From Eledone cirrhosa (taxonomy: Eukaryota), in contig OZ024747.1 in assembly GCA_964016885.1 (NCBI GenBank), positions 51,398,001-51,462,000 of the forward strand: DNA of 64,000 bases, written 5' to 3'. Below the pieces are notes generated by a model. The model made no database searches, was not told where the DNA came from, and saw only the letters and a program-made list of their open reading frames with translations. Position numbers and translations under genes: made by a program. Position 1 is the first letter of the stretch. Each line of letters starts with the position of its first letter. This document shows positions 22,033 through 61,800 of the stretch, one piece after another.

Positions 22033-23953
22033 ATGAATAACACGAAGGGAACGCTGGAGAACGTCGACAGAGAAAAGAGAGAGAAAGAGGCAGATTTTAA
22101 CGTTATATCTGCTTCTGCTACTATGGACGTCGCCATAGATACGACTGTCAACAAAGGGAAAAAAATATTGCCACTTGAAGATTGTACAATTTCTACCGTC
22201 GAAGCAGAAAAAAAAAAGGAAAACACAGGAATTAAACCCATTAACATACATACACATGAAAAAAACATCAATAACTCCACAGATACATCTACACATAAAG
22301 TTTCACCTCATCAAGGAACTGAGATTTCCAACACCGAGGCTAACAACGATAACAACAACAGCACCCCCCCCCCCCAAAAAAAAAAATGTCATTCGCTGAA
22401 TCAGTGAACAAAAAACAAGATTTTATTTAATAAATCTTGACATCTCCAATGCAAGAGATATGCTCCAGCAAGGGAGAAAATGTGTAACTTTCGAAGAAAA
22501 GGGTGGGTTTAGAATTAACTTACCCCTTGAAATAAAAGAAGACACAGTTCGAAGATCAGTGATCTTTAGGACTGTGTCCAATACCACGAGAAAGCCGATA
22601 ATTGTTAGCCAAGGAGATATAGAAAATACCTTGAAAGAAATTCTAGCAAATATCGAATTTCTCCAACGAGGAAAACAGTACGGAAGTGTTTCCATACTGT
22701 TTAAAAGCGAGGCACTCGCCCCAAAACATTCTGTGACACCAATAGTATCAAAAGCATTCACCTTTTTCCCTACATACATGGGGAAAAGGACACAAAAAAT
22801 AAAAATAAAAAATATACCACAAAACATTAACATCTGGTGGATCTTGGCTGGCTTCGTAAAGCCAGAAAATGATATGATTCTTTCGATACGAAATTATATT
22901 CGACAAAGGTGGGTGGGTACTGATTTGGATATTCTATTGCAAATGAGGCCGGAGAGAATCTCCAAAATACCCGAAAGAGTCGTCATCGATGATAACAACA
23001 AAATAAACATTTCGGTAGAAGGATGAAAATGTCATTGCTTTCGCTGTGGTAGCACAGCACACCTAAAAGCCTCTTGTCCTTCACAAACACACCACAACAA
23101 CATCATTAAAAAAACACTATTACCAACACCAACACCAAAACAACCACCACCACAACAAGTACAACAGACGAAACGAGCAACCACACTAAAAACAAACAGC
23201 CACACAACCAACAACAACAGGAAAAACAGAGACAACACTCCTGAAGAACACAGCTCCATCCCATCCCACTCCATCAAACACTACCACAAACACACACACC
23301 GAAACACCACCACCACACAACATACCACTACCCCACACTCCTGACGATGATTATTCCTCGACGGATGAAGCTGCTTCTCCTTCTTTAAGTGAAGAAGAGG
23401 AAGAGCCGCGGAAATCTAAAAAACAAAAAAAGAGACACCACAAAACCCTCAAAACTCCAATCACCAACACCAACACACAACCACAGACGCAAACAACAAC
23501 GCAAACAACACCACAGTCAAACATCCCCCTACCAGCAAAACCAACAATAACACCACCCAAACACAAGCACCCACCATAAAAAGAAAACACCCGGACGAAC
23601 AACAAACTAAAACAACACAACAAAAACACAAACAACAAAACGCATACATCAACACAAACAACAGGAGTTTGATGGAGGTCATCTCCCAAAACCCCAAGGT
23701 GGAGACGGAGGGCAAAACTTTCGTCAAGGCAGAATCGACTCCACACCTTAAACTTATAAGGGTTTCTATGGAAACCTATAATGACCTAAAAATTAAATTT
23801 TCACAGGACGTGGGCAACCCCTGCCAGAAACCCATCAACTGCGTCCTGTTAAAATGTTTCCCCACCCCACCCAACACCCCATCCAGCACCCAAATGGAGA
23901 TTGAATGCGCCTTTCGTCCTTTTTCTCCAACTCTTCTTCACCAACATGGCTAG
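22033..23953 (+). pseudogene. Disrupted ORF1 of Tx1-like LINE
   Basis: YGSVSILF, FPTYMGKRTQKIKIK, LDILLQMRPERI and CFRCGSTAHLKASC match the intact ORF1; broken by stops and frameshifts. Confidence 0.88.
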
Positions 23954-26900
23954 TTTACGAGTTAGAAGCGTGAATGTGCGTGGCCTAGGGATGCCCTGGA
24001 AACAGGGCCAACTTTTAAACGACCTTAGGTCACACGGTATGGATGTGATAGCCATCACCGCGTCCAGGATCCACAACAGGCAGCAACTAACCCCCATCTT
24101 CGACGACTTTGAGATCTACGCATCTCTCTGTCAGCCAGAAGGTGGAGGGGCAGTGGCTGTCATGTTTCGTAAGAACCTGGACGTCGAAGTACAGCAAGTA
24201 CATTTGGACTCGGAGGGTAGACTGGTAGTCCTAGACGTGAACAGTATCGGAGGTGGAGCCTTCAGACTGGTGGCCGTTTATGCCCCAACCGGGCAATCGC
24301 AATCACAGCTAGACTTCTTTAAGCGTCTAGAGTCTTTTCTGGGAACATCTCGCTCCTTACGTATAGTGGGGGACTGGAATGGTAACCTAGATGCACGATG
24401 GGACTATGTGGGAGCATGTCCCAGTCGAGGGGGTGCAACAGCCTCAAAACTTTAATCGGCCAATTCCAACTGGCCGATAGTTATCGATTGGATTTCCCGA
24501 CTGCACCACAGGGGACGTGGGCAAACCGCAGCGGGACATCTAGATCGTATTTAGATAGGTGCTTCATTAGAGAAAGGGACAAGGAGATGTTAATCTGTCC
24601 ACGAATGCACATGGTTGCCTATTCAGATCACAAATTAGCCGTCTGCTTAGTCAACCGTGATAGAATACATAGACAAGGACCCGGATACTGGAAGCTGAAA
24701 GTGTCGTTCCCGGCACGTAAAGCTTACAGTGAACGGATAAGTAGACTAGTCAAGCAACAGTTAACGGGAGCCATCGTCAACAATAAATGGTGGTACTCGC
24801 TCAAGAAAGCAATTAGAATAGAATCGATAGGGTTTAGCAGAGAGTTAGCTTTAGAGAAAAACAAATTAGAAAGAGAACTAGTAGCCAAGGTAGAGGAGGC
24901 ACTTAGAAGTGGCAACGCGGCAAGGGTGTTAGCGTCGAGAACGACACTGGACCAGTTCTTCGATGCAAAACACGAAGGCTGCGTGGTCAGAAGCAAAACA
25001 CGTGCTCTAAGAAACGAAGGAGCGAAATCTGTCAGCTGGGCCCGAGTGGCGGAGGTGAAAAGTGGCAACGAGTCCACGATTCGGTCTTTGAAAGACCAAA
25101 AGGGACGCGTGCTGCTTGACTCCAAGCAAATGTGCGCGGCCTTTGAGCAGCACTTTGCGCGAGTGTTTGAGCAGAACGACGGTGAGCCGAATGGGGCAAT
25201 GGACTTTAGTTCCTACCTCAACGGCCTGCCGCGTCTCTCGAACACGGACGCCGAGTTCTGTGAAAGACCGATCACAGACACTGAGATACGGGACGCTCTG
25301 GGCCGCTGCGAGAAATGCAAGTCACCCGGTCTAGATGGTCTACCCTATTAGTTTTACATAGGCATGCCGGACTTGTTCTCTGGCGTCCTCGAAGCCGTCT
25401 ACTGCAATTGACAGCAGAACGGGGGAATTCCCAGTTCTGCAGGCAAGGGCCTAGTAACGCTGATCAGGAAAGACGAGAACAAGGGGACGAAATTAACAAC
25501 TTCAGGCCCATAACTCTGCTCAACACAGACTTAAATATTTTGGCCAAGGTGCTAGCGACGAGGTTGGCGCTTGTCGTCAAGAACCTGGTAGGGAAAGCCC
25601 AAACGTGTGCAATCCCGACCAGGTCCATACACGACAACCTCCACCTCATGCGATACATCATAGAGAGGGTGGGTAGTAAACCCGGCTTTGGTGTGGCTCT
25701 GATCAATTTAGATCAGTCTAAGGCATACGATAGGGTCGACCATTGATACTTGGAAGCGGTTCTCAAGGCGGCCGGTTTTGGTCCCGTTTTCAGAAGCTGG
25801 ATCGAGGCGATACACACCAGCATCTGCTCGAGGGTCAAGGTGAACGGCTACTTATTGGAGCCGTTCGCAATCACGCGTTCCATTCGTCAGGGGTGCCCTC
25901 TCTCCTCCATTCTGTATGTATTGACTCTAGAGCCACTACTGCGGAAATTGGAGCTGTTGCAGGGCATCCCTCTAGAACTGGGACTGCGCAAAGCGGCGTC
26001 AGCTTATGCCGACGACGTGATGGTAATGGTGTCGATCACCTCGGAAATCGGGGTGATCGGTAACTTACTGAAAGAATACGAAACGCTGATGGGAATAAAC
26101 GAAACCCGGACAGTCTGTCGGTTTGCAACTCATTACGTGGAGAGGCAAACCGATGACGTCCGACAGCGTCGTTGGACACTGGACGGACGGACCGATAAAA
26201 TTGCTCGGGGTCTGGTTCGGTCCAGACCTCCAGGTGGAGAAAAACTGGAATGAGGTCACGGCTAAGGTGTTTGCGCTCACCATGAAGTGGGCAGATTGCA
26301 AACTGTCCTTGAAAGGTCGAGCGGAGGTGGCGAACAGTTTCATAGCGTCCGTCATCTACTACCGCTTGACTGTCGTGCCTTGTCCCCGTGAACACCTCGC
26401 CAAGATGGAACGTATGCTCTTCTAGTTTCTGTGGAAGAAGCAGGCTCCGCTAGTGAGGAGATCCGTCTGCTGTCAGCACCCTTCCAACGGTGGGCGGGGA
26501 ATGCCGTGGCTGATGATGCGCAAATATGCGCTGAGGCTGCGGCATCTCCAGGTATTCCTCACCGACCCCCAACCGGTGTGGACACTGATTGTGAGACAGG
26601 CTTTCCCGCAGCTCGTCTCGCTGACGGAGCTGCAGTCTTGGGTCAAGAAAAGACCGAAAACGATGGGCGCCTGGCACATTGAATGCGCTCAGGCGCTCAC
26701 AGTCCTCTGGCAAGCGGGCACAGCAATCAGTGAGACTCCACTTCGACATTCTATAGAGGGATTCTACGTTACAAGGGCGACGACGTGCTCGGAGATACTC
26801 TGGGCGTCGAAGACGATGAGCTCACCAGTTTGTTTGGTAGGACTTTCCGCTCGGGACCTATGGACAACTTCCAGAGGTCCCTGGCTTGGCAGTGCTACCG

Positions 26901-27375
26901 AAGAGCTCTACCAGTTCGTGACAAGATCCACAGCCACAGACGCCCCGGCAGGGATCCTTCCAAGAGGACGTGTCCAAGATGCGCGCAGGACATTGAAACC
27001 GTCCTGCACACGATTGTACACTGCCCGGGCGTAACTAACCTGTGGAACTATGCAGAACAACTGCTGTCGCGTATGGGACAAATCCAGTTGACTGCCGAAT
27101 CCATAGTAAGGATCAAAGCGCCAGCCTCTTTCAAAAACGAAAGAGAGGCGGTTTTCTTCTGTACAGTGGCTATGGTGAAAGAAATTATATGGTGGACGAG
27201 ATTGAGAGGACTGAGGACAGATGCCTTTCTCTCCGGACAACAATTGATTCCCGTCTTTAGAAGGAGAATCAGACTGGTGAGAGAGGCACTGCACCCCAGT
27301 AAATTTACTGAAAGGTGGGTGAATGTGGCAAAAACGGCCCGGGTGATTGGGCCTTCTCTGTATATAAGCCTGTAG
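23946..27375 (+). pseudogene. Disrupted ORF2 (APE-RT) of Tx1-like LINE
   Basis: MASLRVRSVNVRG start, GDWNG, SDHKL, KSPGLDGLPY, RQGCPLS, YADD and CPRC are split over at least 7 ORFs. Confidence 0.92.
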
Positions 27376-33343: not shown

Positions 33344-35321
33344 ATATATATTTATCCATATATATATATCCATATATATATATTTATTTATATATATCCA
33401 TATATATATATATATTTATTTATATATATATATATCCATATATATATATATTTATTTTTATATATATATATATATATATCCATCTATCTAAATATATCTA
33501 TATCTATACATCAATCAATATTTCGATTTATTGATGAGTCTCTAGAAATATTTTGTTTTAATCTTCAGGGAATTATATATGTTAGATATTCCATTGTATT
33601 TTATAAACTTATCACTTTAAATATAATTCTATTTCAGTGGAGAATCGACATAGAGGTGAAATATTAATTTTCTATTTTTCTATACTTCTCTACCATCCAT
33701 TACTTCTTGTTTTCGTGTTGCTGGGGCTGGTGCTGGTGAGGGATTCGTTCTTATGTGAGTTTTCATCAACCAGAGGCGTCCCAACGCCGACATTCTAGTC
33801 TCTCATTTACAAAGTGGTAGTAAGAAGTGGTAAGAAACTCTCAGGAGAGCTGCAGAACAGAAGGTCTTCAGAGAACAAACCCCACTCAAACGAGTGCTTG
33901 GTTCCTTATCATCACCTTATCATTCGAATATGATAATGTGCTGACGCAGTTAACGTGTCATTGTCAACGATGTGGTACGAACTTTAGACTGTATTGTTAG
34001 TAGAACAATATCTTCCCAACTTAGCCAAATGTTACTCTGTAATTGATTCATCATACCGAAGACCCTTCAGTATATATATCTACGTCAATCACTTTAATTA
34101 TATATTAAATTGAAACCCACATTTTGAATGAAATAATGACATAATGACTGTTTTAAATTACCTCCCCTTTCTTCCACATCACACTGAATGTTGATTATAG
34201 TTTAATTTTTCTTTATTGTTTCTCCAACGTATTAATTTCAATTTCCTCAAGTAATTAATGCTAATTAACTATTATTATTGCAGATAATTAAGAGTGAAGT
34301 ATTTAAAACAAATATTTCCTGTTTCGGATATTTTTGAGTTATACTTTTATGGATTTGCACTCGTTAGCTTAAAAAAATGTGACAAAAAAAAAAAAAAAAA
34401 GAAATATATTCAGCTAGGTATTTTAACCTTTATATTAGAATTTCTAAAAATTTCATTTCTTGACGAAATATTTAAAAAAGTTATTTTAAAAAAATCCAAA
34501 CAATCAGCTTATTACTATTTCTTGTTCTTTATTGATTTTATGACCACATAAGCCAAAATAGAGCCAAGCGCCATTTTGGAATAATTCTGCGAGAGAAATT
34601 CTATATTTTACTCTTATGTTCAACTTTATATCTTTTGTACTTTTGTTAAATGGCCTGGATTAGAAGAAAAAGAATTGAATGGTGATGCTGGTGATGAACA
34701 TGATGATGACGATGATGGCGATGTTAATAATAATAATAACAACAACAACAATAACAACAACGATTGAATAAAATTAAATAAAAATAATAGTAGTAATGTG
34801 AAGAGAGACTCCTGGAAAGACAAAAAGAAACACATAAATAAACGAGACATTTGTACCAGTTGGTATAATGAGAAGCAATTTGCATAATTGCTAGTAATTT
34901 CGCTTTAAGTTGAACTAAAAAGAAATGTAGAACATTCAGTGCTGTTAGAAATGGTGGTGGTGGTAGTGGCGGCGGTAGTGGTGGTGACGGTGGTGGTGGT
35001 GACGGTGGGGGTGGTGACTGTGGTGGTGGTAACGGTGGTGGTGGTGACTGTGGTGGTGGTGACGGTGGTGGTGGTGGTCGTAGTGGTAGTGGTTGTGGTT
35101 GGTGGAATAAGTTCCATTGTAAAACTTATGAAGTACATTATATACATAGGGAATAAAATGGCGTTGGGTTAACCTCTAACGACAGAGGGCCGGGAGTACA
35201 GGGAGCTTTTAGCAGGAATTATAGCATTCCCACACTCCTCAATGTAATTGCAATGGAACTATCACACCCTCTTTCTTTCCTTCTTCTCCTTTCTCTCAGT
35301 ATATACATACATATATATATA

Positions 35322-35381
<60 letters not shown>

Positions 35382-35402
35382 TACATATATACATATATAC
35401 AG

Positions 35403-35479
<77 letters not shown>

Positions 35480-35506
35480 CATATATACATATATACATAT
35501 ATACGG

Positions 35507-35540
<34 letters not shown>

Positions 35541-35801
35541 GGAAAAAATGAAACGAAATTTCATTTCCCACTCTTAGTACGGCTGTTACTTAAATATAAG
35601 TATGTACACATACATACATATATGTATACAGACGTACAGTAGTATGTATATATATATACATACATGCACACACATATATATGTACGTATGGATTCACCGA
35701 ACATTTATTATAATGCTCGGTGTGTTTGTAAACAAACATCCCGTATTAAGCCGTAGTGTCTAGCAACCATTGTTGCTCGTTTGTTCAACACTGACAAAGG
35801 A

Positions 35802-35844
35802 ACGCTGTACTAGTTTCCAGCTTATTAGCTATCGTCAGCAACGT
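35802..35844 (-). ncRNA. Minimal hammerhead ribozyme
   Basis: ACGUUG-CUGACGA-U AGCU AAUA AGCU G-GAAA-CUAG-UA^CAGCGU, with palindromic stem III ACUAGU. Confidence 0.8.
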
Positions 35845-36134
35845 ATACCTTCCTGCCAGATTGTTGAACGTATATACTTCCCTTATGCATATTAACGGCT
35901 GAGTAGCCCACTGTACTGTACGTCTGTATATATATATATATGTATGTACGTGTACATACCTATATTTAAGTAACAGCCGTACTAAGAGTGGGAAATGAAA
36001 TTTCGTTTCATTTTTTCCGTTTATCGTTTTCGGTGCACCCGGCCGATTAACCCACTCGATATGCAAATTGGGCTACTCAGCCGTTAATATGCATAAGGTA
36101 AGTATATACGTTCAACAATCTGGCAGGAAGGTAT

Positions 36135-36177
36135 ACGTTGCTGACGATAGCTAATAAGCTTGAAACTTGTACAGCGT
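36135..36177 (+). ncRNA. Minimal hammerhead ribozyme (inverted partner)
   Basis: ACGUUG-CUGACGA-UAGCUAAUAAGCUU-GAAA-CUUG-UA^CAGCGU. Confidence 0.75.
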
Positions 36178-36470
36178 TCCTTTGTCAGTGTTAAACAAAC
36201 GAGCAACGATGGTTGCTAGACACTACGGCTTAATACGGGATGTTTGTTTACAAACACACCGAGCATTATAATAAATGTTCGGTGAATCCATACGTACATA
36301 TATATATATGTGTGCATGTATGTATATATATATACATGCTACTGTACGTCTGTATACATATATGTATCTACGTGTACATACTTATATTTAAGTAACAGCC
36401 GTACTAAGTGTGGGAAATGAAATTTCGTTTCATTTTTTCCGTTTATATATATATATATAATATATATATG

Positions 36471-36665
<195 letters not shown>

Positions 36666-40325: not shown

Positions 40326-40547
40326 CAAGGATGTATTTGAAACTGGTTAGACCATTACTGATCAGATTAGTCGATACTTGGCGTAGTAGAATATGGTTAT
40401 ATTATAATGAGTCGTAACCCCGACACCCTAACTCTTGCAGCAACTAAGGGGAAAATTGATTAGATCGAACCAGTGCGTTACGTATACTTTATTTTATCGA
40501 CCCCAAGTGGATGAAAGAAAGGCATGAATCGCAAAGGGCGGTGTCTA

Positions 40548-43500
40548 TGTTCTGCATAATGGACGGCATGGACTTGCTTCTCCAGGTGCCGCGTTGGAAG
40601 CCCACCGAATTTTCAGGGTTAAGTTTTGCACTCGTCAAAGTTTCATATTCCTCCAATAAGTTGCTGACCACCTCGATTTCTGAGGTGTCCGACACCATTA
40701 CGGTGATGTCGTCCGCATAAGACGACACTGCCTTTCCGCGTCCCAGTTCGAACGAGATGCCATGCAACAGCTCCAGCTTCCGCAGTAAAGGCTCGAGAGT
40801 CAATACGTACAGAAGGGAGGAGAGAGGGTTTCCTTGACGGACCGATCGGGAGATATGAAACGGTTCCGAAAAGTGGCAATTAAATTTGACCACCGAGCAG
40901 ATGTCGCTGCGCATTGCAGCAATCCAGCTTCTGAAGACGGGGCCGAAGCCAGCTGCCTTGAGGACAGCCTCCAGGTACCAATGGTCGACCCTATGTAATG
41001 CTTTCGATTGATCTAGATTGATCAGAGCCCCACCGAAGCCAGGTTTACACACTACTCTCTCTATGATGTATCGCATCAGGTGGAGGTTGTCGTGTATGGA
41101 CCTGGTTGAGATTACACATGTTTGCGCCTCCCCTAACCAAATCCTCGACGACAAATGCCAACCTCTTCGCTAACATCTTGGCCAAAATCTTAAACTCTGT
41201 GTTGAATAGGGTTATGGGCCTGAAATTATCTAATGTGTCCCTTTTGTTCTCATCTTTCCTTATCATCGTCACTACGCCCCGACTCACAGAACTGGGAATA
41301 CTCCCGTTCTGCTTCCAGTTGCAGTAGAACGCTTCGAGAAGATCGGAGACTCAGTAATGGTCTTAGGGCAGATCATCCAAACCGAGTGATTTCTGCCTCG
41401 TGCAGCTGACAAGGGCATCCTGAATTTCGGCTAAAGTTATCTGCCTTTCGCAGCCCTCAGCGTCGGTTGTCGAGAGACGCAGCAAGCCGTTGATGTATGG
41501 ATTGAAATCCACTACGTTCTCTCACCCGCCACTCCCCTAAACAACCGAGCAAATTGCTGGCGAAAGGCATCACTCATCCGCCTGGAATCGCTCAGCTCGT
41601 GTCCGTCTCAGTCCGTCAAAGGTGGAATTGTAGTTTTATTACCACGATGCGCCTCTGTCACGTGGGCCCTTCAAACAGCTTTGGTTCGCTCGTTTCTCAG
41701 AGCACGCGCCTTAGCTCTGACAATGCAACCTTTGTGTTTCACTTTGAAGAAATGGTCTAATGCCATTCTCGCCGCTAACACCTCAGTTGCAATGGTACTA
41801 CAAATAGCCTCGTCTAACTTATCTACCAACTCCCCCTCCTTTCTATTTTCTCTAATACTATTTCTTTGATAAACCCTATCGATATTACTCTAATCCCTCT
41901 TTTGAGAGCCCCTCCCCCCCACCATCTGTTGTTAACGACTTCCCCTGTCAACTTTTGCTTAACTAAATTGCTGACCCGACCCCTGTAAGCCTTACGTACC
42001 GGAAAGATGCTCATCTTCCAGTAATCAGATCCTAACCCACGTGAATTATCTAGGTCGACCATTCAGATCACAAACTTGTGATCTGATTAGGCAGCATGTT
42101 TAAAGCCTACATTATTTCTATCTACTTTTCTAATGAAAATCCTGTCTATATACGATCTAGATGACCCTCTGCGGTTGGTCCAGGTCCACACTGGCGCATT
42201 AGGGAAATCTAGACAGTTGGAACTGGCTGATCAGATCCTTGAGGCTTTTGCACCCCCCTCTTATGTCAGCTTCTCCCACACAATCCCAGCGTGCGTCTAA
42301 GATGCCGTTCCAGTTCCCCGTTAACAATAAAGCGCGAGACGTACCCAGAAAGGCTTCTAGGCCCCGGTAGGGGCGTAGACAACCACCAGACTAAAGTCAC
42401 CACCTTTGCTATTGTTCACGTCTAGAACCACCAACTTACCGTTCGGGTCCCACAAAATTGACCTTATCTCGAGACCAGGCATTTCCTAAACGGCATTGTC
42501 ACCCCACTCCTCATTCCCTGCCGACTAACATATGCGAAGATCCGATAGTCGTTGAAAATAGGAGCTAGTTCATGCGTGTCAAGTCGTAAATCCTGGTCTC
42601 TCTGACGGCAATTACATCCATTTCTAGAGACCTGCGGTCGTTGACCAGGTGAACCTGATTCCAAGCTGACTCCAAGCTAGGCACATTTAAACTTCCTAGT
42701 CCTAATATGGGCATGTTGGCAGGCTAAAAAAGAGAGGAAAGGTTTATTTACCTCGCGGAGGTATTTGGAGGTTGGGTGGTTCAATCTTCATAGTTGGTGT
42801 GGGGTTTCTTTTTAGAACCCCTTTAAAAGTCCCGATGTGGGTTTAACGTTCGGGGTTCCCACGACCCGAGGCAAGCTGTCTTCATTTGTAGGAATCAGGA
42901 GACATTCGCACCAGAAATAAATCTACCGTTATGCGAAATGTTCTCGATTCAATAATCTCCGCCTCTGTTTGGATTTCTTCACTTCGTGCTACGATGGCCA
43001 TCAATTTCTCGTTGCCTCTTCTCACAAGTACGATATTTTTTTATGTTTTGTTGGTGCGGCTTTATTTGTTTGCGCTTGGGTGACTATGGTGTTGATTGTT
43101 TTGGTGATATTGTTTCGGGTGTGTCTGTGTTTCTTGTGGGTGCAGTGTCTGCAATTTCCGGTGTCTGTGTATGTATTTGCTCGTGTATGTTTAGGTTGTT
43201 TGCGTTTGAGGGATTGTGATAATTGTGATGGTGGTGGTGGTGTTGGGAAAGTGTTCTCGTGGACCGTGTCTGCATGTTTTGTTGTGGGCTTTTTCTTTGT
43301 GCTTTTTTTTTTTTTTTTTTTTTTGGCTTATTTGGATTTTCCTTCATCTTCACAACTGGAAGATAAGGGATCTGTGGATGTAAGTGTGTCTGTGTGCTTG
43401 TTTATGTTTTTGTTCATGTGTGTATTTTTTTTTTGGGGGGGGGGTAAGAGAGCCTTCCTGGTTTCTCCCGTGGGTGGCCAATGTTGGTAGTGGCGTTGAT

Positions 43501-47656: not shown

Positions 47657-48039
47657 ATAATAATAAATTTGAAGACTAAAATCCAAAGAGGGCTCGATAA
47701 GGATAAATATATATCAAATATATAAGAACCGTAGAGCAAACATTTATATATCATACTCTGTTATTTTAATATATATATATATATATATATAAATGTAATC
47801 TGAGTTTTTCGAATGTTAATAACATTCGATTCGTTTGCAATTATGCAAACAAGCCTCATTTTTATTCAGCCATGTAGACCGAAATTTATATATATATATA
47901 TATATATATGGAAAGTTATATTTAAAATTGTTGGGTTACAACTAGTAAATATTTATAACTGATATAAAAGCACTCGACAAATATTTGGAGTATATTTACA
48001 ATATTAAATAAATGGAAACTATATTTATAAAACCATATT

Positions 48040-48105
48040 TATTTCATTATATATATTTCGGGGATATCATATTAACAATATGCTATGCCTTCCTCAGACA
48101 AAATA
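48040..48105 (-). ncRNA. Hammerhead ribozyme (family A variant), left arm of a palindrome
   Basis: Mirror image of 48261-48326. Confidence 0.7.
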
Positions 48106-48260
48106 CAATATAAACTGTTTTATAGATAAATAGATTCGACATACCGTAACAACACCGACTTGCATTTGAAGAGGTTGAACTGGCAGTTCAACCTCTTCAA
48201 GTGCAAGTCGGTGTTGTTACGGTATGTCGAATCTATTTATCTATAAAACAGTTTATATTG

Positions 48261-48326
48261 TATTTTGTCTGAGGAAGGCATAGCATATTGTTAATATGAT
48301 ATCCCCGAAATATATATAATGAAATA
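48261..48326 (+). ncRNA. Hammerhead ribozyme (family A variant), right arm of a palindrome
   Basis: UAUUUUGU-CUGAGGA-AGGCAUAGCAUAUU..AAUAUGAUAUCCCC-GAAA-UAUAUA-UA^AUGAAAUA. Confidence 0.7.
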
Positions 48327-48363
48327 AATATGGTTTTATAAATATAGTTTCCATTTATTTAAT

Positions 48364-48446
<83 letters not shown>

Positions 48447-49689: not shown

Positions 49690-51955
49690 ACATATACAAA
49701 AATACATATGCACACACATATACATACACACATAGACATATACATACATGGACACATATATACATGGTCACACGTACATATATATACATGCACACACATA
49801 TACATACACACATACACATATACATACATGGACACATATATACATGGTCACACATACATATATACACATGCACACACATATACAGACACGGATACACATA
49901 TACACACATGGACACATTTATACATACACGGACACATATACACATACATGCACACATATATACATACATGGATACATATATACATACATGGATACATATA
50001 TACATACATGGATACATATATACATACATGCACACATATATACATACACGGACACATATATACATACACGGACACATGTATACATACATGCACACATATA
50101 TACATACACGGACACATGTATAAATACACGGACACATATGCATACATACACAGACACACATATACATACACGGACACACATATACATACACGGACACACA
50201 TATACATACACGGACACATGTATACATACACAGACACACATATACATACACGGACACACATATACATACATGGACACACATATACATACACAGACACACG
50301 TATACATACACAGACACACATATACATACACAGACACACATATACATACACATACACATGTATACATACACAGACACACATATACATACACGGACACACA
50401 TATACATACACGGACACACATATACATACACGGACACACATATACATACACGGACACACATATACATACACAGACACATGTATACATACACAGACCCACA
50501 TATACATACACAGACACACATATACATACACAGACACACATATACATACACGGACACACATATACATACACAGACACATATACATACACAGATACACATA
50601 TACATACACGGACACAGGTATACATACACAGACACACATATACATACACAGACACACATATACATACACGGAAACACATATACATACACAGACCCACATA
50701 TACATACACGGACACACATATACATACACGGACACACATACACATACACGGACACATGTATACACACACGGACACACATATACATACACAGACACATGTA
50801 TACACACACAGACACACATATACATATACGGACACACATATACATACACAGACACACATATACATGCACATACACATGTATACATACACAGACACACATA
50901 TACATACACAGACACACATATACATACACAGACACACATATACATACACAGACACACATATACATACACGGACACACATATACATACACAGACACACATA
51001 TACATACACGGACACACATATACATACAAGGACACACATATACATACACGGACACACATATACATACACAGACACACATATACACACACAGACACACATA
51101 TACATACACAGACACATGTATACATACACAGACCCACATATACATACACGGACACACATATACATACACGGACACACATATACATACACGGACACATGTA
51201 TACACACACAGACACACATATACATACACAGACACATGTATACATACACGGACACATGTATACATACACAGACCCACATATACATACACGGACACACATA
51301 TACATACACGGACACACATATACATACACGGACACACATATACATACACGGACACATGTATACACACATGGACACATGTATACATACACAGACACATGTA
51401 TACACACACAGACACACATATACATACACAGACACATGTATACATACACAGACCCACATATACATACACGGACACACATATACATACACGGACACACATA
51501 TACATACACGGACACATGTATACACACACAGACACACATATACATACACAGACACATGTATACATACACGGACACATGTATACATACACAGACCCACATA
51601 TACATACACGGACACACATATACATACACGGACACACATATACATACACGGACACACATATACATACACGGACACACATATACATACACGGACACACATA
51701 TACATACACAGACACATGTATACACACACAGACACACATATACATACACGGACACATGTATACACACACGGACACACATATACATACACAGACACATGTA
51801 TACACACACAGACACACATATACATACACGGACACACATATACACACATGGACACACATATACATACACGGACACATATATACACACATGGACACATGTA
51901 TACACACATGGACACATATATACACACATGGACACATGTATACATACATGCACAC
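49690..51955. repeat. 20-bp minisatellite (TACATACACGGACACACATA)n, about 110 units
   Basis: Directly visible 20-bp periodicity with variant units. Confidence 0.97.
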
Positions 51956-52277
51956 AGAATTTAATTTAAAAAATTCCCAATAAAAGATAGGAATGTAGGT
52001 CAAAAGTTTTAAGCTAGTTTCAGAAGAAACCTGTATAAGGAGCTGCACCTCGTATGCCGCTCTACTCAACCTACCTCCCACTCCACACATCTGCCATATA
52101 TCCTCATCCTCTGTACACACATCACCATCTTTACCCGATTAATTCACAAAGCACAACAATACCTCCCGCACAATACCTCCATTACATATCTCTCTCCCCT
52201 TCACTTCCCACCAATACTCCTTCACCGACAATTCAACCATCTCCACCGCCACACTACCACCGCAAATGCCGGTGCGT

Positions 52278-55200
52278 ACCACCACCACCACCACCACCAC
52301 CACCACCACCACCACAACTACGACCAAACCACCATTGCCACTAGACTACCTCCACCACCAACATTATCACCAGTACCATCACCACCACCACCACCACCAC
52401 AACTACGACCAAACCACCATTGCCACTAGACTACCTCCACCACCAACATTATCACCAGTACCATCACCACCACCACCACCACCACCACCACAACTACGAC
52501 CAAACCACCATTACCACTAGACCACCTCCACCACCAACATTATCACCACTACTACCACCACCACCACAACTACGACCAAACCACCATTACTACTAGACCA
52601 CCTCCACCACCAACACCACAACTACGACCAAACCACCATTACCACTAGACCACCTCCACCACCAACATTATCACCACTACCACCGCCACCAACACCACCA
52701 CCACCACAACTACGACCAAACCACCATTACCACTAGACCACCTCCACCACCAACATTATCACCACTACCACCACCACCACCACCATGACTACGACCAAAC
52801 TACCATTACCACTAGACCACCTCCACCACCAACATTATCACCACTACCACCACCACCACCACCACTACGACTACGACCAAACCACCATTACCACTAGACC
52901 ACCTACACCACCAACATTACCACCACCACCACCACCACCACCACCACCACAACTACGACCAAACCACCATTACACTAGACCACCTCCACCACCAACATTA
53001 TCACCACTACTACCACCACCACAACTACGACCAAACCACCATTACCACTAGACCACCTCCACCACCAACATTATCACCAGTACCATCACCACCACCACCA
53101 CCACCACCACCACAACTACGACCAAACCACCACTACCACTAGACCACCTCCACCACCAACATTATCGCCACCACCACCACAACTACGACCAAACCACCAC
53201 TACCACTAGACCACCTACACCACCAACATTATCACCATTACCACCACCACTACCACCCCTACGACTACGACCAAACCACCATTACCACTAGACCACCTCC
53301 ACCACCAACATTATCACCACTACCACCACCACCAACACCACCACCACCACAACTACGACCAAACCACCATTACCACTAGACCACCTCCACCACCAACATT
53401 ATCACCACTACCACCACCACCACCACTACCACCACCACTACGACCAAACCACCATTACCACTAGACCACCTCCACCACCAACATTATCACCACTAACACC
53501 ACCACCACCACTACGACCAAACCACCATTACCACTAGACCACCTCCACCACCAACATTATCACTACTACTACCACCACCACCACCACAACTACGACCAAA
53601 CCACCATTACACTAGACCACCTCCACCACCAACATTATCACCACTACTACCACCACCACAACTACGACCAAACCACCATTGACACTAGACAACCTCCACC
53701 ACCAACATTATCACCACCACCACCACCACCACCACTACCACCACCACCACAACTACGACCAAACCACCATTACCACTAGACCACCTCCACCACCAACATT
53801 ATCACCACTACTACCACCACCACCACAACTACGACCAAACCACCATTACTACTAGACCACCTCCACCACCAACACCACAACTACGACCAAACCACCATTA
53901 CCACTAGACCACCTCCACCACCAACATTATCACCACTACCACCGCCACCAACACCACCACCACCACAACTACGACCAAACCACCATTACCACTAGACCAC
54001 CTCCACCACCAACATTATCACCACTACCACCACCACCACCACCATGACTACGACCAAACTACCATTACCACTAGACCACCTCCACCACCAACATTATCAC
54101 CACTACCACCACCACCACCACCACTACGACTACGACCAAACCACCATTACCACTAGACCACCTACACCACCAACATTACCACCACCACCACCACCACCAC
54201 CACCACCACCACAACTACGACCAAACCACCATTACCACTAGACCACCTCCACCACCAACAATATCACCACTACCACCACCACCACCACTACCACCACCAC
54301 CACCACCACAACTACGACCAAGCCACCATTACCAATAGACCACCTCCACCACCAACATTATCACCACTACTACCACCACCACCACCACCACAACTACGAC
54401 CAAACCACCATTACCACTAGACAACCTCCACCACCAACATTATCACCACTACCACCACCACCACCACCACCACCACCACCACCACCACCACCACCACCAC
54501 CACCACCACCACCACCACCACCACCACAACTACGACCAAACCACCATTACTACTCGACCACCTCCACCACCAACATTATCACCACTACCACCACCACCAC
54601 CACCACAACTACGACCAAACCACCATTACTACTCGACCACCTCCACCACCAACATTATCACCACTACCACCACCACCACCACCACAACTACGACCAAACC
54701 ACCATTACCACTAGACCACCTCCACCCCCAACATTATCACCACTACCACCACCACCACCACCACCAAACAGGCACTACCAGCATGTTAAACCACTGCCAC
54801 CAGCATTATCAACACAACCACTGCCACCACCACCACCACCACCACCACCAGCACGGTAACCACTCCACCACTAGACCACCAACACCAGCATTATCACCAG
54901 CACCACTACCACCACCAGCACGTTAACCACTCCACCAGCAACAGCACCACCACCACCAGCAGGTTAACCCCTCCACCAGCAACAGCACCACCACCACCAC
55001 CACCAGCACCAGCACCACCACCACCAGCAGCAGCAGCACCACCACCAGCAGCAATACCACCTCCGCCGCCACCACAATCACCACCACCACCACCAGTACC
55101 ACCACCACCACCAACACCACCACCACCACCAGTACCACCACCACCAACACCACCACCACTACCAAACAAACAACACCACCACCACCACCATCAACACCAC

Positions 55201-55325
55201 CGCCACCACCACCACCGCCGCCGCCGCCACCAATACCACCACCACCACCATCAACATCAATACCACCACCACCACCACCAACTCCACCACCACCACCACC
55301 ACCACCACCACCACCACCACCACCA
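52278..55325. repeat. Compound minisatellite: ~55-bp core plus variable (ACC)n, grading into (ACC)n low complexity
   Basis: CAACTACGACCAAACCACCATTACCACTAGACCACCTCCACCACCAACATTATCACCACT repeated more than 30 times, to about 54760. Confidence 0.96.
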
Positions 55326-56777: not shown

Positions 56778-56978
56778 GATAGAGTAAGACACGCTTCGCA
56801 TCGGCTCCGCTATTCCATCGGGATTTACCCTTGCTATTGTAAGTACCGGATAAATTTTTTAGTGCAACACATTTGGAACACTAACCCCTGTTATTTAGGG
56901 AAACATTTTTGCATTTACCCCCTTTTTAGGGGGTAAAATAAATATCTATTTTTGCCGAAAAATTTCTTTCTTGGCAGC

Positions 56979-58814
56979 ATGGCGGAAAAGATGGCAGACA
57001 TGTCTGCCATTAGCTCTGCCACGCCCCCCAAGTCTGAAGAACAAAAAATAATTACAACAAAATTAGACATTGAAACAAACAAACAAAATGAAAAAACAAA
57101 TGTTAAGGAAAATGAGCAAACAGAAAACAAACAAACAGAAAATAATACAAATAACGACAGGGCAACTTTCGCCCAGAAAACAAAGCAATCCATTACATAC
57201 ACACCAATTGACCTAACTGCCGCCAGAGAAAAACTGGCCGAAGCAAAGAAACATATTGTTTTGGGGGAAAACGGAATGTTTTCCATTAACTCCCCCCCAG
57301 AATTCAAGAAAGCCAGAGCAGAAAACACAGTTATATACAGAACTATACTAAACCAGTCAAGAAAGCCAGCACAGCCCAGCCAAATGGAAATAGAGTTAGT
57401 CCTAAAAGACTATATGAAGAATATTCTCTTCATACGAAAGGACCGACTCTATGGCAGCATTTCGGTCCTAACAAGAGACAAAGAAACGGCGGTTCAGCTT
57501 TCCCTAAGCCCACTCTCGTCGACAACATATAGCTTCTATCCCTCCTACATGGGTAGAAGAACTCAGAGAATAAAAGTAAAAACAATGCTGCCCACAATGG
57601 ACTTCTGGTGGGCTATTGCTGGCTTCATTGATATGGGCGAAGACACTATGCTGTCAATGGGGAAGGCAACTGGAGATGCGTTCCTGGGAATGGGCCTCGA
57701 CATACTAGTCCAAATGAGGCCCGAAAGAATAGCACAAATCCCGGATCGCATCTGGCTGGATGACCTTACCCCAATAGACATAATTGTAGAGGGGAGAAGA
57801 CCAGCATGCTATTTATGCATGGAAAGGGGACACGTTAAGGCTAACTGCCCGAAACGTATCCCCCAAAAAGGACTATTGCCCACACCCACCACAAACAGTA
57901 CACCAGCACCACCCACCTCCAAAAATACACTAATACCACACACAGCAAACAAAATACAGACACCACCAACCACAAACACAACACAAACATCACCACCACC
58001 AGCACCAAACACAAGCACGACACAAAAATCACCACCACCAACCACAACACAAACATCACCACCACCATTACCAACCACAAGCACGACACAAACATTACCA
58101 CCACCACCACCACAAAACCCATTCCAAACAAATAATAAAAAAAACAGTAACAAATCTACCCCTCCCGCAAAAAAAAAACAACCACACAACACGTCCCTCC
58201 CACCTAGCGCTGAAGAGTTTCCCCCAACTTCTGAAGAAGAAGGAGGAGAAGCCTTCAGACAAGTTAAAAGAAAAAAAAGAAAACACACACCCAGCACACC
58301 ACAAATAACCCACACACAAACACCAACTCCAATCAAAAACACCCCACCCTCAACAAACAAAAATAAATCTGCGCCTCCCCTCTCCGAAACATTGACAGCA
58401 TCACAAAAAAAGACGTTGCAATACACATATATAAATAAAGAAAACAAAAAACTGGTTAAATTAATAAACAATAACCCTATGGTGCAGACCGAAGGGCCAA
58501 ACTTTATCTCAACAGAGAACTTCACCCATTTAAAAATGATAAAGGTCCCTCTGGACCTTTATCGTTCCTTAAAAGAACAATTTAGACGGGACGTGAGCCC
58601 CCCCTGTTTAAAACCGTTGAATCGCGTCCTCTTGAAAGATTTCCCCATAACCGCCCCTCTCCCTGACACAACTCCAAATACCCCAACCCCACCACACACG
58701 TGTACCCCCACACCACCACAAAACATCCCTCCACCCAACACACCTGATGCCATGGAAATTACGCAACCCGGAGAGGTAAGTGCTTTTCTTTCTTCACTTT
58801 CAACACCAAAATAG
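56979..58814 (+). CDS. ORF1 (gag-like nucleic-acid-binding protein) of the Tx1-like LINE
   Basis: Open frame (ORF track 56952-58814; likely ATG at 56979 in GCAGCATGG). Contains VEGRRPACYLCMERGHVKANC (CX2CX4HX4C knuckle), a Pro/Thr-rich linker and a basic KRKKRK stretch. Confidence 0.9.
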   Translation: MAEKMADMSAISSATPPKSEEQKIITTKLDIETNKQNEKTNVKENEQTENKQTENNTNNDRATFAQKTKQSITYTPIDLTAAREKLAEAKKHIVLGENGMFSINSPPEFKKARAENTVIYRTILNQSRKPAQPSQMEIELVLKDYMKNILFIRKDRLYGSISVLTRDKETAVQLSLSPLSSTTYSFYPSYMGRRTQRIKVKTMLPTMDFWWAIAGFIDMGEDTMLSMGKATGDAFLGMGLDILVQMRPERIAQIPDRIWLDDLTPIDIIVEGRRPACYLCMERGHVKANCPKRIPQKGLLPTPTTNSTPAPPTSKNTLIPHTANKIQTPPTTNTTQTSPPPAPNTSTTQKSPPPTTTQTSPPPLPTTSTTQTLPPPPPQNPFQTNNKKNSNKSTPPAKKKQPHNTSLPPSAEEFPPTSEEEGGEAFRQVKRKKRKHTPSTPQITHTQTPTPIKNTPPSTNKNKSAPPLSETLTASQKKTLQYTYINKENKKLVKLINNNPMVQTEGPNFISTENFTHLKMIKVPLDLYRSLKEQFRRDVSPPCLKPLNRVLLKDFPITAPLPDTTPNTPTPPHTCTPTPPQNIPPPNTPDAMEITQPGEVSAFLSSLSTPK

Positions 58815-61800
58815 ATCAATTGAGAGTTGGCTGTTTGAACGCGCGTGGCCTGAGCTCAGCTTGGAAGCAAGCAAAGCTTCTAAGTGACCTCAGGTCACAA
58901 AGTATAGATGTGATGGTTGTTTGCGAGAGTCGGATCAGCAGCGTGAGACAGCTGGCGCCCGCCTTCGATGACTTTGAGATGCACGCATCTCTCTGTCAAC
59001 CCGGAGGCGGGGGGGGAGTTGCCGTACTGCTGGATAAACGTCTGACTCTCGACGTACAGATTGTTCACTCGGACCCGGGGGGTCGATTACTGGTGCTGGA
59101 CGTCGGAGGTGGTGAAGGCGGGGCTTTCAGACTGGTCGGTCTTTATGCTCCCTTCGGGGCGGAGAGAGCCGACTTCTTCCAACGTCTGGAGACTTTTCTA
59201 GGAACGTCGCGTTCCCTGCTTTTAGTGGGGGACTGGAATGGAATCCTAGATGCGCGTTGGGACTATGCAGGGGCATGTCCCGATAGAGGGGGGTGTAGCA
59301 GCCTCAAGGGGTTACTCGATCGATTCGACCTGGTCGATAGATTTCGACTAGATTGTCCAACTGCGCCAACCTGGACCTGGGCAAACCGCAGTGGACAATC
59401 TAGATCGTACCTAGATAGGTTTTTGGTTAGGAGTAAGGATAGGGACGTATTTAGTTGTCCAGAACTGATCATGGTTGGCTATTCAGATCACAAATTAGTG
59501 ACCTGCGTGGTCAACCTTGATAGAACGCATAGACAGGGTCCCGGTTACTGGAAGATGAACTTGTCCTTACCGACAAAGAAAGATTACAGAAACCGGATTA
59601 GTAGCTTAGTTAAGATGCGGTTGACGGGAGCGATCGTCAACAGCAGGTGGTGGGTATCTCTAAAGAGAGAGATTAGAGTAAGTTCGATAGGTTACAGTAA
59701 GGAACTAGCGGCGAATAGAAATAGGAGGGAAAGGGAGTTAACAGATAAACTAGAAGAGGCGATTAGGAGCGGAGACGTAGCCAGAGTGTTAGCGACGAGA
59801 ACGGCATTGAGCCAGTTCTTTGACGCGAAGCACGAAGGCTGCGTTGTCCGAAGTAAAATACGTGCTTTAGGAAACGAGGGGACCAAAGCTGTTAGCTGGG
59901 CCCGCGTGACAGAAGCCAAGAGTGGGATTAAATCCACCATTCGGTCTTTGCGAGACCAGGATGGACGGGTGATCCTTGAACCTGAGCGAATGTGCGAGAC
60001 CTTTCAAAGGCACTTTGCTCGACTGTTCGGAGGTGGCGGGGGGCCGGACGGGGATGTGGACTTCGGTCCATACCTCGACGGTCTACCGCGTCTTTCGAGC
60101 GGCGAAGCGGAGTGCTGCGAAGGGCCAATCACAGCCACTGAAATCGGGGAAGCGCTCAGCCAATGCAGCAGACGCAAATCCCCGGGTCTCGATGGTCTAC
60201 CATACGAACTTTATTTAGCTATGCCGGTCTTGTTCTCCGAACTCCTCGAGGCTGTCTATTGCAACTGGCAACAGAACGGGAGAATTCCCTGTTCTGTGAC
60301 CAAGGGCGTGGTCACGCTAGTGAGGAAGGACGAGAGCAAGGGGGACGACTTAAGTAACTTTAGGCCCATAACTCTGCTGAATGCAGAGTTACAGATTTTG
60401 GCCAAGGTGTTGACGAAGAGGTTGGCGCTTGTGGTGGGTGGTTTGGTGGGAGACGCGCAGACATGCGCTATCCCGTCCAGGTCCATTCACGACAACCTCC
60501 ACCTCATGCGATACATCATAGAGAGGGTTGGCTACGAACCCGGCTTTGGTGGGGCCCTGATCAACTTGGATCAATCTAAGGCGTTCGATAGGGTCGACCA
60601 TGGTTACCTGGATGCGGTGCTAGCGGCGGCGGGCTTCGGACCCGTTTTCAGGGGCTGGATTTCTGCCATGCACAGTGGCAACATCTACTCTAGGATTAAA
60701 GTAAACGGCTACCTCTCGGAGCCGTTTCAAATCACCCGATCCATCAGACAGGGGTGCCCCCTCTCCTCCCTTCTGTACGTATTGACTCTCGAGCCACTGC
60801 TGCGGAAGTTGGAGTTGCTGCGGGGCATACCCCTGGAACCGGGATTGCACAAAGCGGTCTCGGCCTATGCCGACGACGTAACAGTAATGGTGGCGGACGC
60901 CTCGGAAATCGGGGCGATCGCCACCCTACTGGAGGAATACGAAAGGCTGACGGGGGCTAAGCTGAACCAGGACAAGTCGGTCGGTTTGCAACTCGGAACG
61001 TGGAGGGGCAAACCGATGCCGTTGGACGGTGTCGTCGGGCGGTGGACGGAGGGCCCGGTGAAGCTGCTCGGGGTCTGGTTCGGACCGGACCTCCAGGTGG
61101 AGAAGAATTGGGGCGAGGTGACGAGCAGGGTGTTTGCGCTGACCCAGAAGTGGGCCAAGTGCAAACTATCACTGAAAGGTCGGGCGGAGGTGACGAACGC
61201 TTACATAGCGTCCGTCATCTACTACCGCCTGACCGTCGTGCCTTGCCCCAAGGAAAAGCTCACCATCATGGAACGCATGCTCTTCCAGTTCCTCTGGAAG
61301 AAGCGGCCTCCCATGGTGAGGAGATCCATCTGCTGCCAGCACCCTTCGAAAGGAGGGCTGGGTATGCCGTGGCTGTTGATGCGTAGGCACGCATTGAGGC
61401 TACGGCATCTACAGGTATTCCTCAACGGTCAGCCGGTGTGGGCCCCGTTTGTGAGGCGAGCCTTCCCACAGCTCGTCTCGCTCACCGAACTGCAATCCTG
61501 GGTGAAGCAAAGACCGAGAAAACTGGGCAACTGGCACACTGAGTGTGCCCAGGCGCTCACGGCTATCTGGCAAGCGGACCCGACTGTCAGTGGAGAATCC
61601 ACCTCGACATTCTATAGAGGGTTGGTGGCTAGCAGGGGCGACGACACCCTTGGAGAGTCGCTAGGCATGGAGGAGGACGAACTGGCCAGCCTGTTCGGTA
61701 GAACTTTCGGCCCGGGACCCATGGACAACTTCCAGAGGTCCCTAGCCTGGCAGTGTTACCGGGGGGCTCTGCCCGTTCGAGAAAAGCTCTACAGACACGG

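What the first reader, a model, noticed from the sequence alone, without database searches (positions are those of the whole stretch)
35537..36444. Inverted plus partial-tandem array of a 422-bp HHR monomer: footprint of a circular or tandem RNA template
Seen: on the plus strand the terminal ~110 bp (35915-36022) is followed by a whole 422-bp unit (36023-36444) ending in the same sequence. This is preceded by an inverted, truncated copy (35537-35910). Each full arm has a minimal HHR, there is no ORF, and (TA)n lies on both sides. Known: PLE insertions often show partial tandems and inverted 5' copies. Inference: a non-autonomous 422-nt retrozyme copied more than once around, with template switching or two-ended priming.
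Basis: partly seen in the sequence, partly recalled or inferred. Interest (0 to 1): 0.7.

Follow-up and report, generated by a model that had tools for sequence, protein, structure and literature searches.

The report
Two-armed hammerhead retrozyme insertion, Penelope footprint
This is one of several thousand genomic copies of a 422-base non-coding jumping repeat that carries a predicted self-cutting RNA motif; its back-to-back copies nearly always end at two different fixed points, which suggests a borrowed Penelope-type enzyme likely copies one RNA, probably a small circle, into both ends of a DNA cut.

Summary
Observation confirmed: inverted arm (unit 47-422), partial tandem (318-422) and full 422-bp unit in (TA)n; both long arms hold a type I hammerhead fold; no ORF. 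The unit is a young, abundant family (at least 7,175 units; 4,972 exact head-to-tail junctions), i.e. a non-LTR retrozyme, a known class already linked to Penelope-like elements (PLEs). Outer ends sit at unit 422 or 365 against (AT)n, like the two RT start sites and 'tail' of PLEs. In two-armed copies with both ends canonical, one arm ends at each site in 22 of 25 and, in a fresh sample, 18 of 20; arms share subfamily variants (38 of 48). Inner ends show no pile-up at the ribozyme cut (4 of 188, 4.9 expected), so a cut linear monomer is not the template. Circle versus uncut multimer stays open (about 55:35). This window's copy is an exception (422 at both ends). No RNA data, cleavage untested, partner PLE not found. 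The scan had already noted the same pattern for other repeats of this genome, including a 422-bp one. New member of a known kind.

The parts
35300..35536 (.). Left (TA)n target microsatellite
35537..35910 (-). Inverted arm, unit 422 to 47; outer end at the 422 start site
   Evidence: 364 of 374 identical to the unit
35802..35844 (-). Type I hammerhead fold of the inverted arm, palindromic helix III intact; predicted cut between 35808 and 35807
35911..35913 (.). Central junction: 3 extra bases giving a 5-nt direct duplication (35910-35919)
35914..36022 (+). Partial tandem unit 318-422 (pseudo-LTR-like), no hammerhead
   Evidence: 101 of 105 identical
36023..36444 (+). Full 422-nt unit; folds more stably than shuffles (z = -4.9)
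36135..36177 (+). Type I hammerhead fold of the full unit; predicted cut after 36171; helix III palindrome broken at 36168
36388..36444 (+). 57-nt 'tail' between the two inferred RT start sites (unit 365 = 36387, unit 422 = 36444); ends in a predicted 10-bp hairpin
36445..36646 (.). Right (TA)n target microsatellite

Best explanation
The locus is one two-armed insertion of a young, non-coding 422-nt hammerhead repeat (a non-LTR retrozyme) that was likely written into a cut (TA)n tract by a Penelope-type RT/GIY-YIG protein supplied in trans, each broken DNA end likely priming on the same RNA, most probably a monomer circle. Shown: the arms face outward, end at unit 422 or 365 against (AT)n, run across the unit junction and the ribozyme site without a preferred stop, and carry the same subfamily variants. 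Inferred: the two fixed ends are two RT start sites (as in the anole Poseidon element), the usual one-site-per-arm pairing reflects two coupled RT active sites on one RNA, the two cDNAs stop at random and are joined in the middle by end joining, and the hammerhead serves to cut tandem transcripts into monomers that are closed into circles. In this copy both arms start at 422, a minority outcome; with a single sense hammerhead per strand it would not yield a monomer circle on its own. Odds: PLE-type two-ended insertion about 85%; given that, circle about 55%, uncut multimer about 35%, other 10%.
For: Family: 7,175 exact 21-mer hits, control 0; 4,972 exact 422-to-1 junctions; 3,857 exact 422-(AT)n ends and 1,570 exact 365-(AT)n ends. 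Ends: of 119 arms, 62 end at 412-422, 40 at 355-370, 4 near 310, 13 elsewhere; AT run beside 58 of 62 and 37 of 40. Pairing: of 37 simple two-armed insertions 24 are 365+422, 3 are 422+422, 0 are 365+365, 10 have a non-canonical end; 22 of 25 without two duplicated copies, p = 6e-5. Fresh sample of 40 loci: 18 mixed, 2 are 365+365, 0 are 422+422, 4 non-canonical, 2 cut by the locus edge, 14 one-armed. One template: 38 of 48 derived-site comparisons shared between arms, shuffled mean 0.11, maximum 0.33. No stop at the cut: 3 of 122 and 1 of 66 inner ends within 145-155, expected 3.2 and 1.7. For a circle: L090 (9 segments over both arms, up to 6 shared variants, 1 private difference in all) and L185 (9 segments, 4 private); 21 of 80 position-ordered arms cross two or more cut sites. 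Hammerhead kept: 2 of 85 core positions differ in five diverged sister copies against 147 of 1,008 outside; U-G/G-U swap in helix I. RT + GIY-YIG frames of 938, 844 and 1,096 aa exist in the genome. Literature: two adjacent RT start sites define the PLE tail, both strands are cut and extended, dimer predicted (PMC11167929); tail often at one end only, inverted 5' copy (PMC8557442); circle-templated model proposed (PMC7229834).
Against: The window's own copy breaks the pairing rule (422+422) and its arms share no derived variant, so it is uninformative on a common template. 10 of 48 comparisons between arms disagree (e.g. L080, L006) and L186 mixes two haplotypes. Several multimers show alternating or higher-order units (L089, L094, L091-L092) or mosaics (L181, L183), so DNA-level expansion also makes tandems, and long arrays that could give uncut multimeric transcripts exist. 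L093 has one variant in 6 of 9 full units, not what one circle gives. In the anole element the hammerhead is dispensable and unprocessed RNA is the main substrate; 8 of 9 Xenopus retrozyme dimers did not cleave in vitro. Helix II here starts with a U-U juxtaposition instead of the usual G-C pair. No partner PLE with a homologous end was found (50 loci). The five sister copies and the helix I swap are related, so they count as few events.
Confidence: 0.62

Rival explanations
1. Same PLE-type two-ended priming, but on an uncut linear transcript of a tandem locus; the hammerhead is a passenger or acts later, and multimers come from master arrays or DNA-level expansion.
For: Explains fixed ends, pairing, shared haplotypes and lack of a stop at the cut equally well. 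Long arrays and higher-order repeats exist. Unprocessed RNA is the substrate in vitro for the anole element.
Against: Sampled long arrays are internally mixed and carry their own haplotype, whereas young dispersed multimers are uniform across both arms and differ between loci by fixed variants (L090, L185, L007, L020), which points to a one-unit bottleneck at each jump. The core stays conserved across sister families.
Confidence: 0.27
2. The mirror image arose at the DNA level (fold-back repair, breakage-fusion, or a MITE-like element with terminal inverted repeats), not by reverse transcription from both ends.
For: Three of 37 central junctions are perfect palindromes with 11-22-nt overlaps; the window's copy has identical outer ends flanked by TA, as a MITE would.
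Against: Most two-armed copies have two different outer ends; arm lengths and inner ends vary freely; many copies are one-armed or tandem (36 of 77 insertions one-armed); fold-back would not place a 365 end opposite a 422 end.
Confidence: 0.05
3. L1-style twin priming or SINE-like insertion of the ribozyme-cut linear monomer by a LINE.
For: A few copies have a short inverted piece with an internal outer end (L008, L009, L033, L070); LINE-type RT frames lie in the window.
Against: No outer end at 145-155 among 119 arms and no excess of inner ends there; no poly(A) and no visible target duplication; both arms start at fixed internal sites.
Confidence: 0.04
4. Assembly artefact in a low-complexity region.
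For: Flanked by long (TA)n; neighbouring copies are sometimes duplicated (L062, L075/L076).
Against: The three parts differ from each other at 3-4% of sites and the same architecture recurs at dozens of loci with distinct junctions.
Confidence: 0.02

Closest known systems
Metazoan non-LTR retrozymes (Cervera and de la Pena 2020, PMC7229834: passages and Discussion read; Li, Clavereau and Pollet, bioRxiv 10.64898/2026.07.22.740005: parts 1-3 of 5 read)
   Same: Non-coding, low-GC tandem units with one type I hammerhead each; monomers to long multimers; coexisting PLEs; strongly self-paired fold; U-U at the base of helix II as in one axolotl family.
   Different: 422 nt is slightly above the 170-400 nt quoted for invertebrate circles; circles and cleavage were shown there but are untested here; in the parts I read neither paper describes two-armed insertions or fixed paired ends; no homology to a PLE pseudo-LTR was found here, whereas 24 of 57 Xenopus families matched Repbase elements, mostly PLEs.
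Endonuclease-bearing Penelope-like elements (Craig et al. 2021, PMC8557442: passages read; Frangieh et al. 2024, PMC11167929: parts 1-2 of 4 read)
   Same: Partial tandem, inverted 5'-truncated copy, tail often at one end only, AT-rich or (TA)n targets, two RT start sites, hammerhead in the repeat.
   Different: No ORF; tail is 57 nt rather than 30-40; whole element repeats head to tail; the anole assay saw no strand difference in start site and did not test whether the two sites are paired within one event.
Non-autonomous Chlamys elements such as MRC1 (PMC8557442, passage read)
   Same: Non-coding PLE passengers with pseudo-LTRs and multicopy head-to-tail insertions.
   Different: Those share 3' similarity with an autonomous family and mostly lack hammerheads; here a hammerhead is present and no partner was identified.
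Hammerheads of PLE pseudo-LTRs (Cervera and de la Pena 2014, PMC4209133: passages read)
   Same: Short palindromic helix III predicted to need a dimer; pairs of motifs 100-700 bp apart on opposite strands were already noted in Schistosoma.
   Different: This motif has a 6-bp helix I and 4-bp helix II (canonical type) and lacks the G10.1-C11.1 pair.

Membership tests
Non-LTR retrozyme | Short non-coding unit in tandem repeats | tested here: met
   4,972 exact head-to-tail junctions; longest ATG frame 51 aa
Non-LTR retrozyme | One type I hammerhead motif per unit | tested here: met
   Core and three helices, 96.9% of cells paired in 8 copies; core conserved in sister copies; no Rfam hit
Non-LTR retrozyme | Two consecutive units with full hammerheads at the locus ('active' in the 2026 preprint) | tested here: not met
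   This copy has one hammerhead per strand; met at many other loci of the family
Non-LTR retrozyme | Self-cleavage of the RNA | not testable with these tools
   Needs an in vitro assay
Non-LTR retrozyme | Expression as monomer circular RNA | not testable with these tools
   No RNA holder listed
Non-LTR retrozyme | No LTR, PBS or PPT; mobile (dispersed young copies) | tested here: met
   Dispersed over many contigs, median 2.5% from the majority sequence over 206 segments; no LTR-like frame; PBS/PPT not searched separately
PLE-mobilised element | Partial tandem plus inverted 5'-truncated copy | tested here: met
   39 of 77 insertions two-armed
PLE-mobilised element | Optional tail from two fixed 3' ends | tested here: met
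   Ends at 365 and 422
PLE-mobilised element | AT-rich or microsatellite target | tested here: met
   AT run beside 95 of 102 canonical ends
PLE-mobilised element | Homology to the pseudo-LTR of an autonomous PLE of the same genome | tested here: inconclusive
   None in 50 GIY-YIG loci and 16 3' regions, a small part of 10,596 candidates
Autonomous PLE | RT plus GIY-YIG ORF continuous with the repeat | tested here: not met
   5 of 113 loci have a PLE protein hit, nearest 331 nt away, none continuous
MITE / DNA transposon | Matching terminal inverted repeats and fixed length | tested here: not met
   Ends differ in 40 of 45 canonical two-armed copies; lengths vary

The most novel reading that the evidence does not exclude
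Retrozyme circles are copied by a dimeric Penelope-type RT that loads once on a single RNA circle, starts at two sites 57 nt apart, and extends both ends of a cut (TA)n tract at the same time by rolling round the circle; the 365+422 pairing is the genomic record of that geometry and explains both the one-sided 'tail' and the inverted repeats of PLEs.
Probability: 0.4. Interest if true: 0.68.

Novelty: new member of a known kind. Interest (0 to 1): 0.38.

Why it matters
How PLEs make their tandem and inverted insertions, and whether retrozyme circles are their templates, are stated open questions (PMC8557442, PMC7229834, the 2026 preprint). A young family with thousands of copies, two exact start sites and a near-fixed pairing gives a ready substrate and a sharp prediction for an in vitro or cell assay. 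The locus itself is an ordinary, slightly atypical member, and the class and most of the footprint are already in print.

Tried and rejected
Rfam: nothing at gathering score; weak hits are TA-rich miRNA look-alikes. Expression: no RNA holder listed; four contig sets of unrecorded kind hold the unit or parts of it, which shows presence only; one laying attempt over the whole locus gave no result. Partner PLE: no similarity of the unit to 50 GIY-YIG loci beyond neighbouring retrozyme copies; 16 3' regions scored no better than shuffles; a hairpin like the tail hairpin near L137 belongs to a separate repeat beyond a (TA)n tract, not to the PLE. One Pfam family I asked for is not in the library. 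Central microhomology: 7 of 37 junctions overlap by 3 nt or more (6.8% expected by chance), 18 of 37 have extra or unaligned bases, so no strict rule. One search used a mis-registered structure string and is void; one search replaces it. The column conservation is biased by the search motif and not used. Target-site duplications could not be read inside (TA)n. In-register test of circle against linear multimer was not decisive (too few private variants; DNA-level expansion confounds). Literature searches for octopus or cephalopod retrozymes and for paired PLE ends listed no paper on this family or on the pairing; Repbase/Dfam and supplements were not seen and may hold it.

Full report
Observation. 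The three parts are present as described: 35537-35910 is the reverse complement of unit 47-422 (364 of 374 identical), 35914-36022 is unit 318-422 (101 of 105) and 36023-36444 is the full unit. (TA)n lies on both sides. Three extra bases at the centre give a 5-nt duplication. Hammerhead cores lie at +36141 and -35838; the longest ATG-started frame is 51 aa. The fold is helix I 6 bp, helix II 4 bp with U-U at its base, helix III 2 bp with a 2-nt loop that is palindromic in most copies (A at unit 146 in 146 of 157 segments) but not in the window's full unit. By the definitions in PMC4209133 (passages) this is the canonical metazoan type I form predicted to work as a dimer. In 8 aligned copies 96.9% of cells pair and one helix I pair swaps U-G to G-U in 3 (7 of 500 shuffles as high; one event). 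In five diverged sister copies 2 of 85 core positions differ against 147 of 1,008 positions outside the motif (related copies). Rfam does not detect it. Cleavage is untested.

Family. The genome is 3.0 Gb; the DNA search gave 597 candidates, of which 40 were scored, at 97-100% identity. A 21-mer has 7,175 exact matches, reversed control 0. Exact junction motifs: 422 followed by unit start 4,972, 422 followed by (AT)n 3,857, 365 followed by (AT)n 1,570; all are lower bounds. Median distance from the majority sequence is 2.5% over 206 segments.

Ends. I mapped 46 position-ordered loci on C1 (20 small overlapping loci replaced by larger stretches) and 27 of the 30 best-hit loci (3 repeats of one array dropped); 4 long-array loci were left out of the end counts. 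Of 119 arms with a readable outer end, 62 end at 412-422, 40 at 355-370, 4 near 310 and 13 elsewhere; AT runs abut 58 of 62 and 37 of 40. This matches the PLE 'tail', which in the anole Poseidon element is the stretch between two RT start sites (PMC11167929, parts 1-2 of 4). Of 37 simple head-to-head insertions, 24 pair 365 with 422, 3 are 422+422 (the window, and two whose left arm does not abut AT), none 365+365, 10 have a non-canonical end. Without two duplicated copies: 22 of 25, p = 6e-5 against independent choice. A fresh sample of 40 loci, picked by one canonical end, gave 18 mixed, 2 with 365+365 (one of them, L186, mixes two haplotypes and looks compound), 0 with 422+422, 4 non-canonical, 2 cut off and 14 one-armed. 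PMC8557442 (passages) already says the tail is often at one end only and that an inverted 5'-truncated copy is common.

Template. Arms of one insertion share subfamily variants in 38 of 48 comparisons over 37 insertions; shuffled pairs give 0.11 on average, at most 0.33. Inner ends are spread along the unit: 3 of 122 and 1 of 66 fall within 145-155, around the predicted cut after 149, against 3.2 and 1.7 expected, and no outer end falls there. So the ribozyme-cut linear monomer is not what is copied. 47 of 80 position-ordered arms cross the unit junction and 21 cross two or more cut sites. For a circle: L090 has 9 segments over both arms with up to 6 shared variants and 1 private difference in all, L185 9 segments with 4, while loci differ by fixed variants, as a one-unit bottleneck would give. 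Against: alternating and higher-order units in L089, L094, L091-L092 and mosaics in L181, L183 show DNA-level expansion; L093 is not uniform; long arrays could supply uncut multimeric RNA; the anole element uses unprocessed RNA in vitro; 8 of 9 Xenopus dimers did not cleave. I put circle at about 55% and uncut multimer at about 35%.

This copy. Both outer ends are at 422, a minority outcome. Its arms carry only private changes (3, 0 and 3), so a common template is neither shown nor excluded. It may record two starts at 422, or a canonical 422+365 insertion extended by a later one joined by homology; I cannot tell. With one sense hammerhead per strand it would not release a monomer by itself (inference).

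Partner. RT + GIY-YIG frames exist: of 10 frames scanned, 7 hit both families, 2 hit RT only in that scan and 1 hit nothing; three frames are 844-1,096 aa. No end homology with the unit was found in 50 loci or 16 3' regions, a small sample of 10,596 candidates. Expression could not be tested.

Comparison and verdict. It meets the sequence-level definition of a non-LTR retrozyme (PMC7229834, passages and Discussion) and the footprint of PLE mobilisation; the link between the two is the subject of bioRxiv 10.64898/2026.07.22.740005 (parts 1-3 of 5). Six searches listed no paper on this family or on paired start sites; supplements and repeat databases were not seen. I reached the two-site reading before opening the scan's notes (note); the notes then showed the same reading for other repeats of this genome, one of them 422 bp and probably this family; they are unchecked and not independent support. 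The label 'octopus-like' comes from those notes and my guess, not from a test. Verdict: real, correctly read, a new member of a known kind; the pairing rule is a useful, testable addition. Interest 0.38.

Noticed in passing
window 47884-48375: Near-perfect 385-bp palindrome (98.7%) with an outward-facing hammerhead-like motif on each arm (+48269, -48097); the left arm runs about 100 nt further than the right, the same one-sided tail pattern in an unrelated family.
   Followed up: partly
window -1728, -12613, -19426, -39429: Four related hammerhead-like motifs in (TA)n, kin of the 48-kb element; -19426 carries the long tail, -12613 and -39429 stop at the short end.
   Followed up: partly
window -10303: A further hammerhead-like motif of another family between (TA)n tracts.
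   Followed up: no
window 56937-62248: Two long frames (625 and 1,166 aa) that read like an intact L1/Tx1-type LINE (ORF1; APE-RT); decayed relatives at 22400-27375 and 40489-41169 (family label from recalled motifs, not scanned).
   Followed up: no
L137:7822-9882, L138:3090-3664, L149, L152, L166: Older sister families of the unit at 74-88% identity; L137 is a uniform tandem of about 487 nt with an expanded internal TA run.
   Followed up: partly
L091-L092 (C1, over 17 kb) and C28 loci L018, L019, L027, L028: The unit has become a satellite with higher-order repeats (4-unit period in part of L092).
   Followed up: partly
window 36061-36068: An octamer-type motif near the unit start (motif recalled from snRNA promoters, no call); one young subfamily has a change in it, so a promoter role is unsupported.
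   Followed up: no
L130, L131, L134, L140, L142: One autonomous-type PLE family has a compact hammerhead motif about 350-400 nt after its stop codon.
   Followed up: no
window 49712-51956 and 52278-55325: A 20-bp minisatellite (112 copies) next to a 3-kb (ACC)n-based array with 79-82-bp periods.
   Followed up: no
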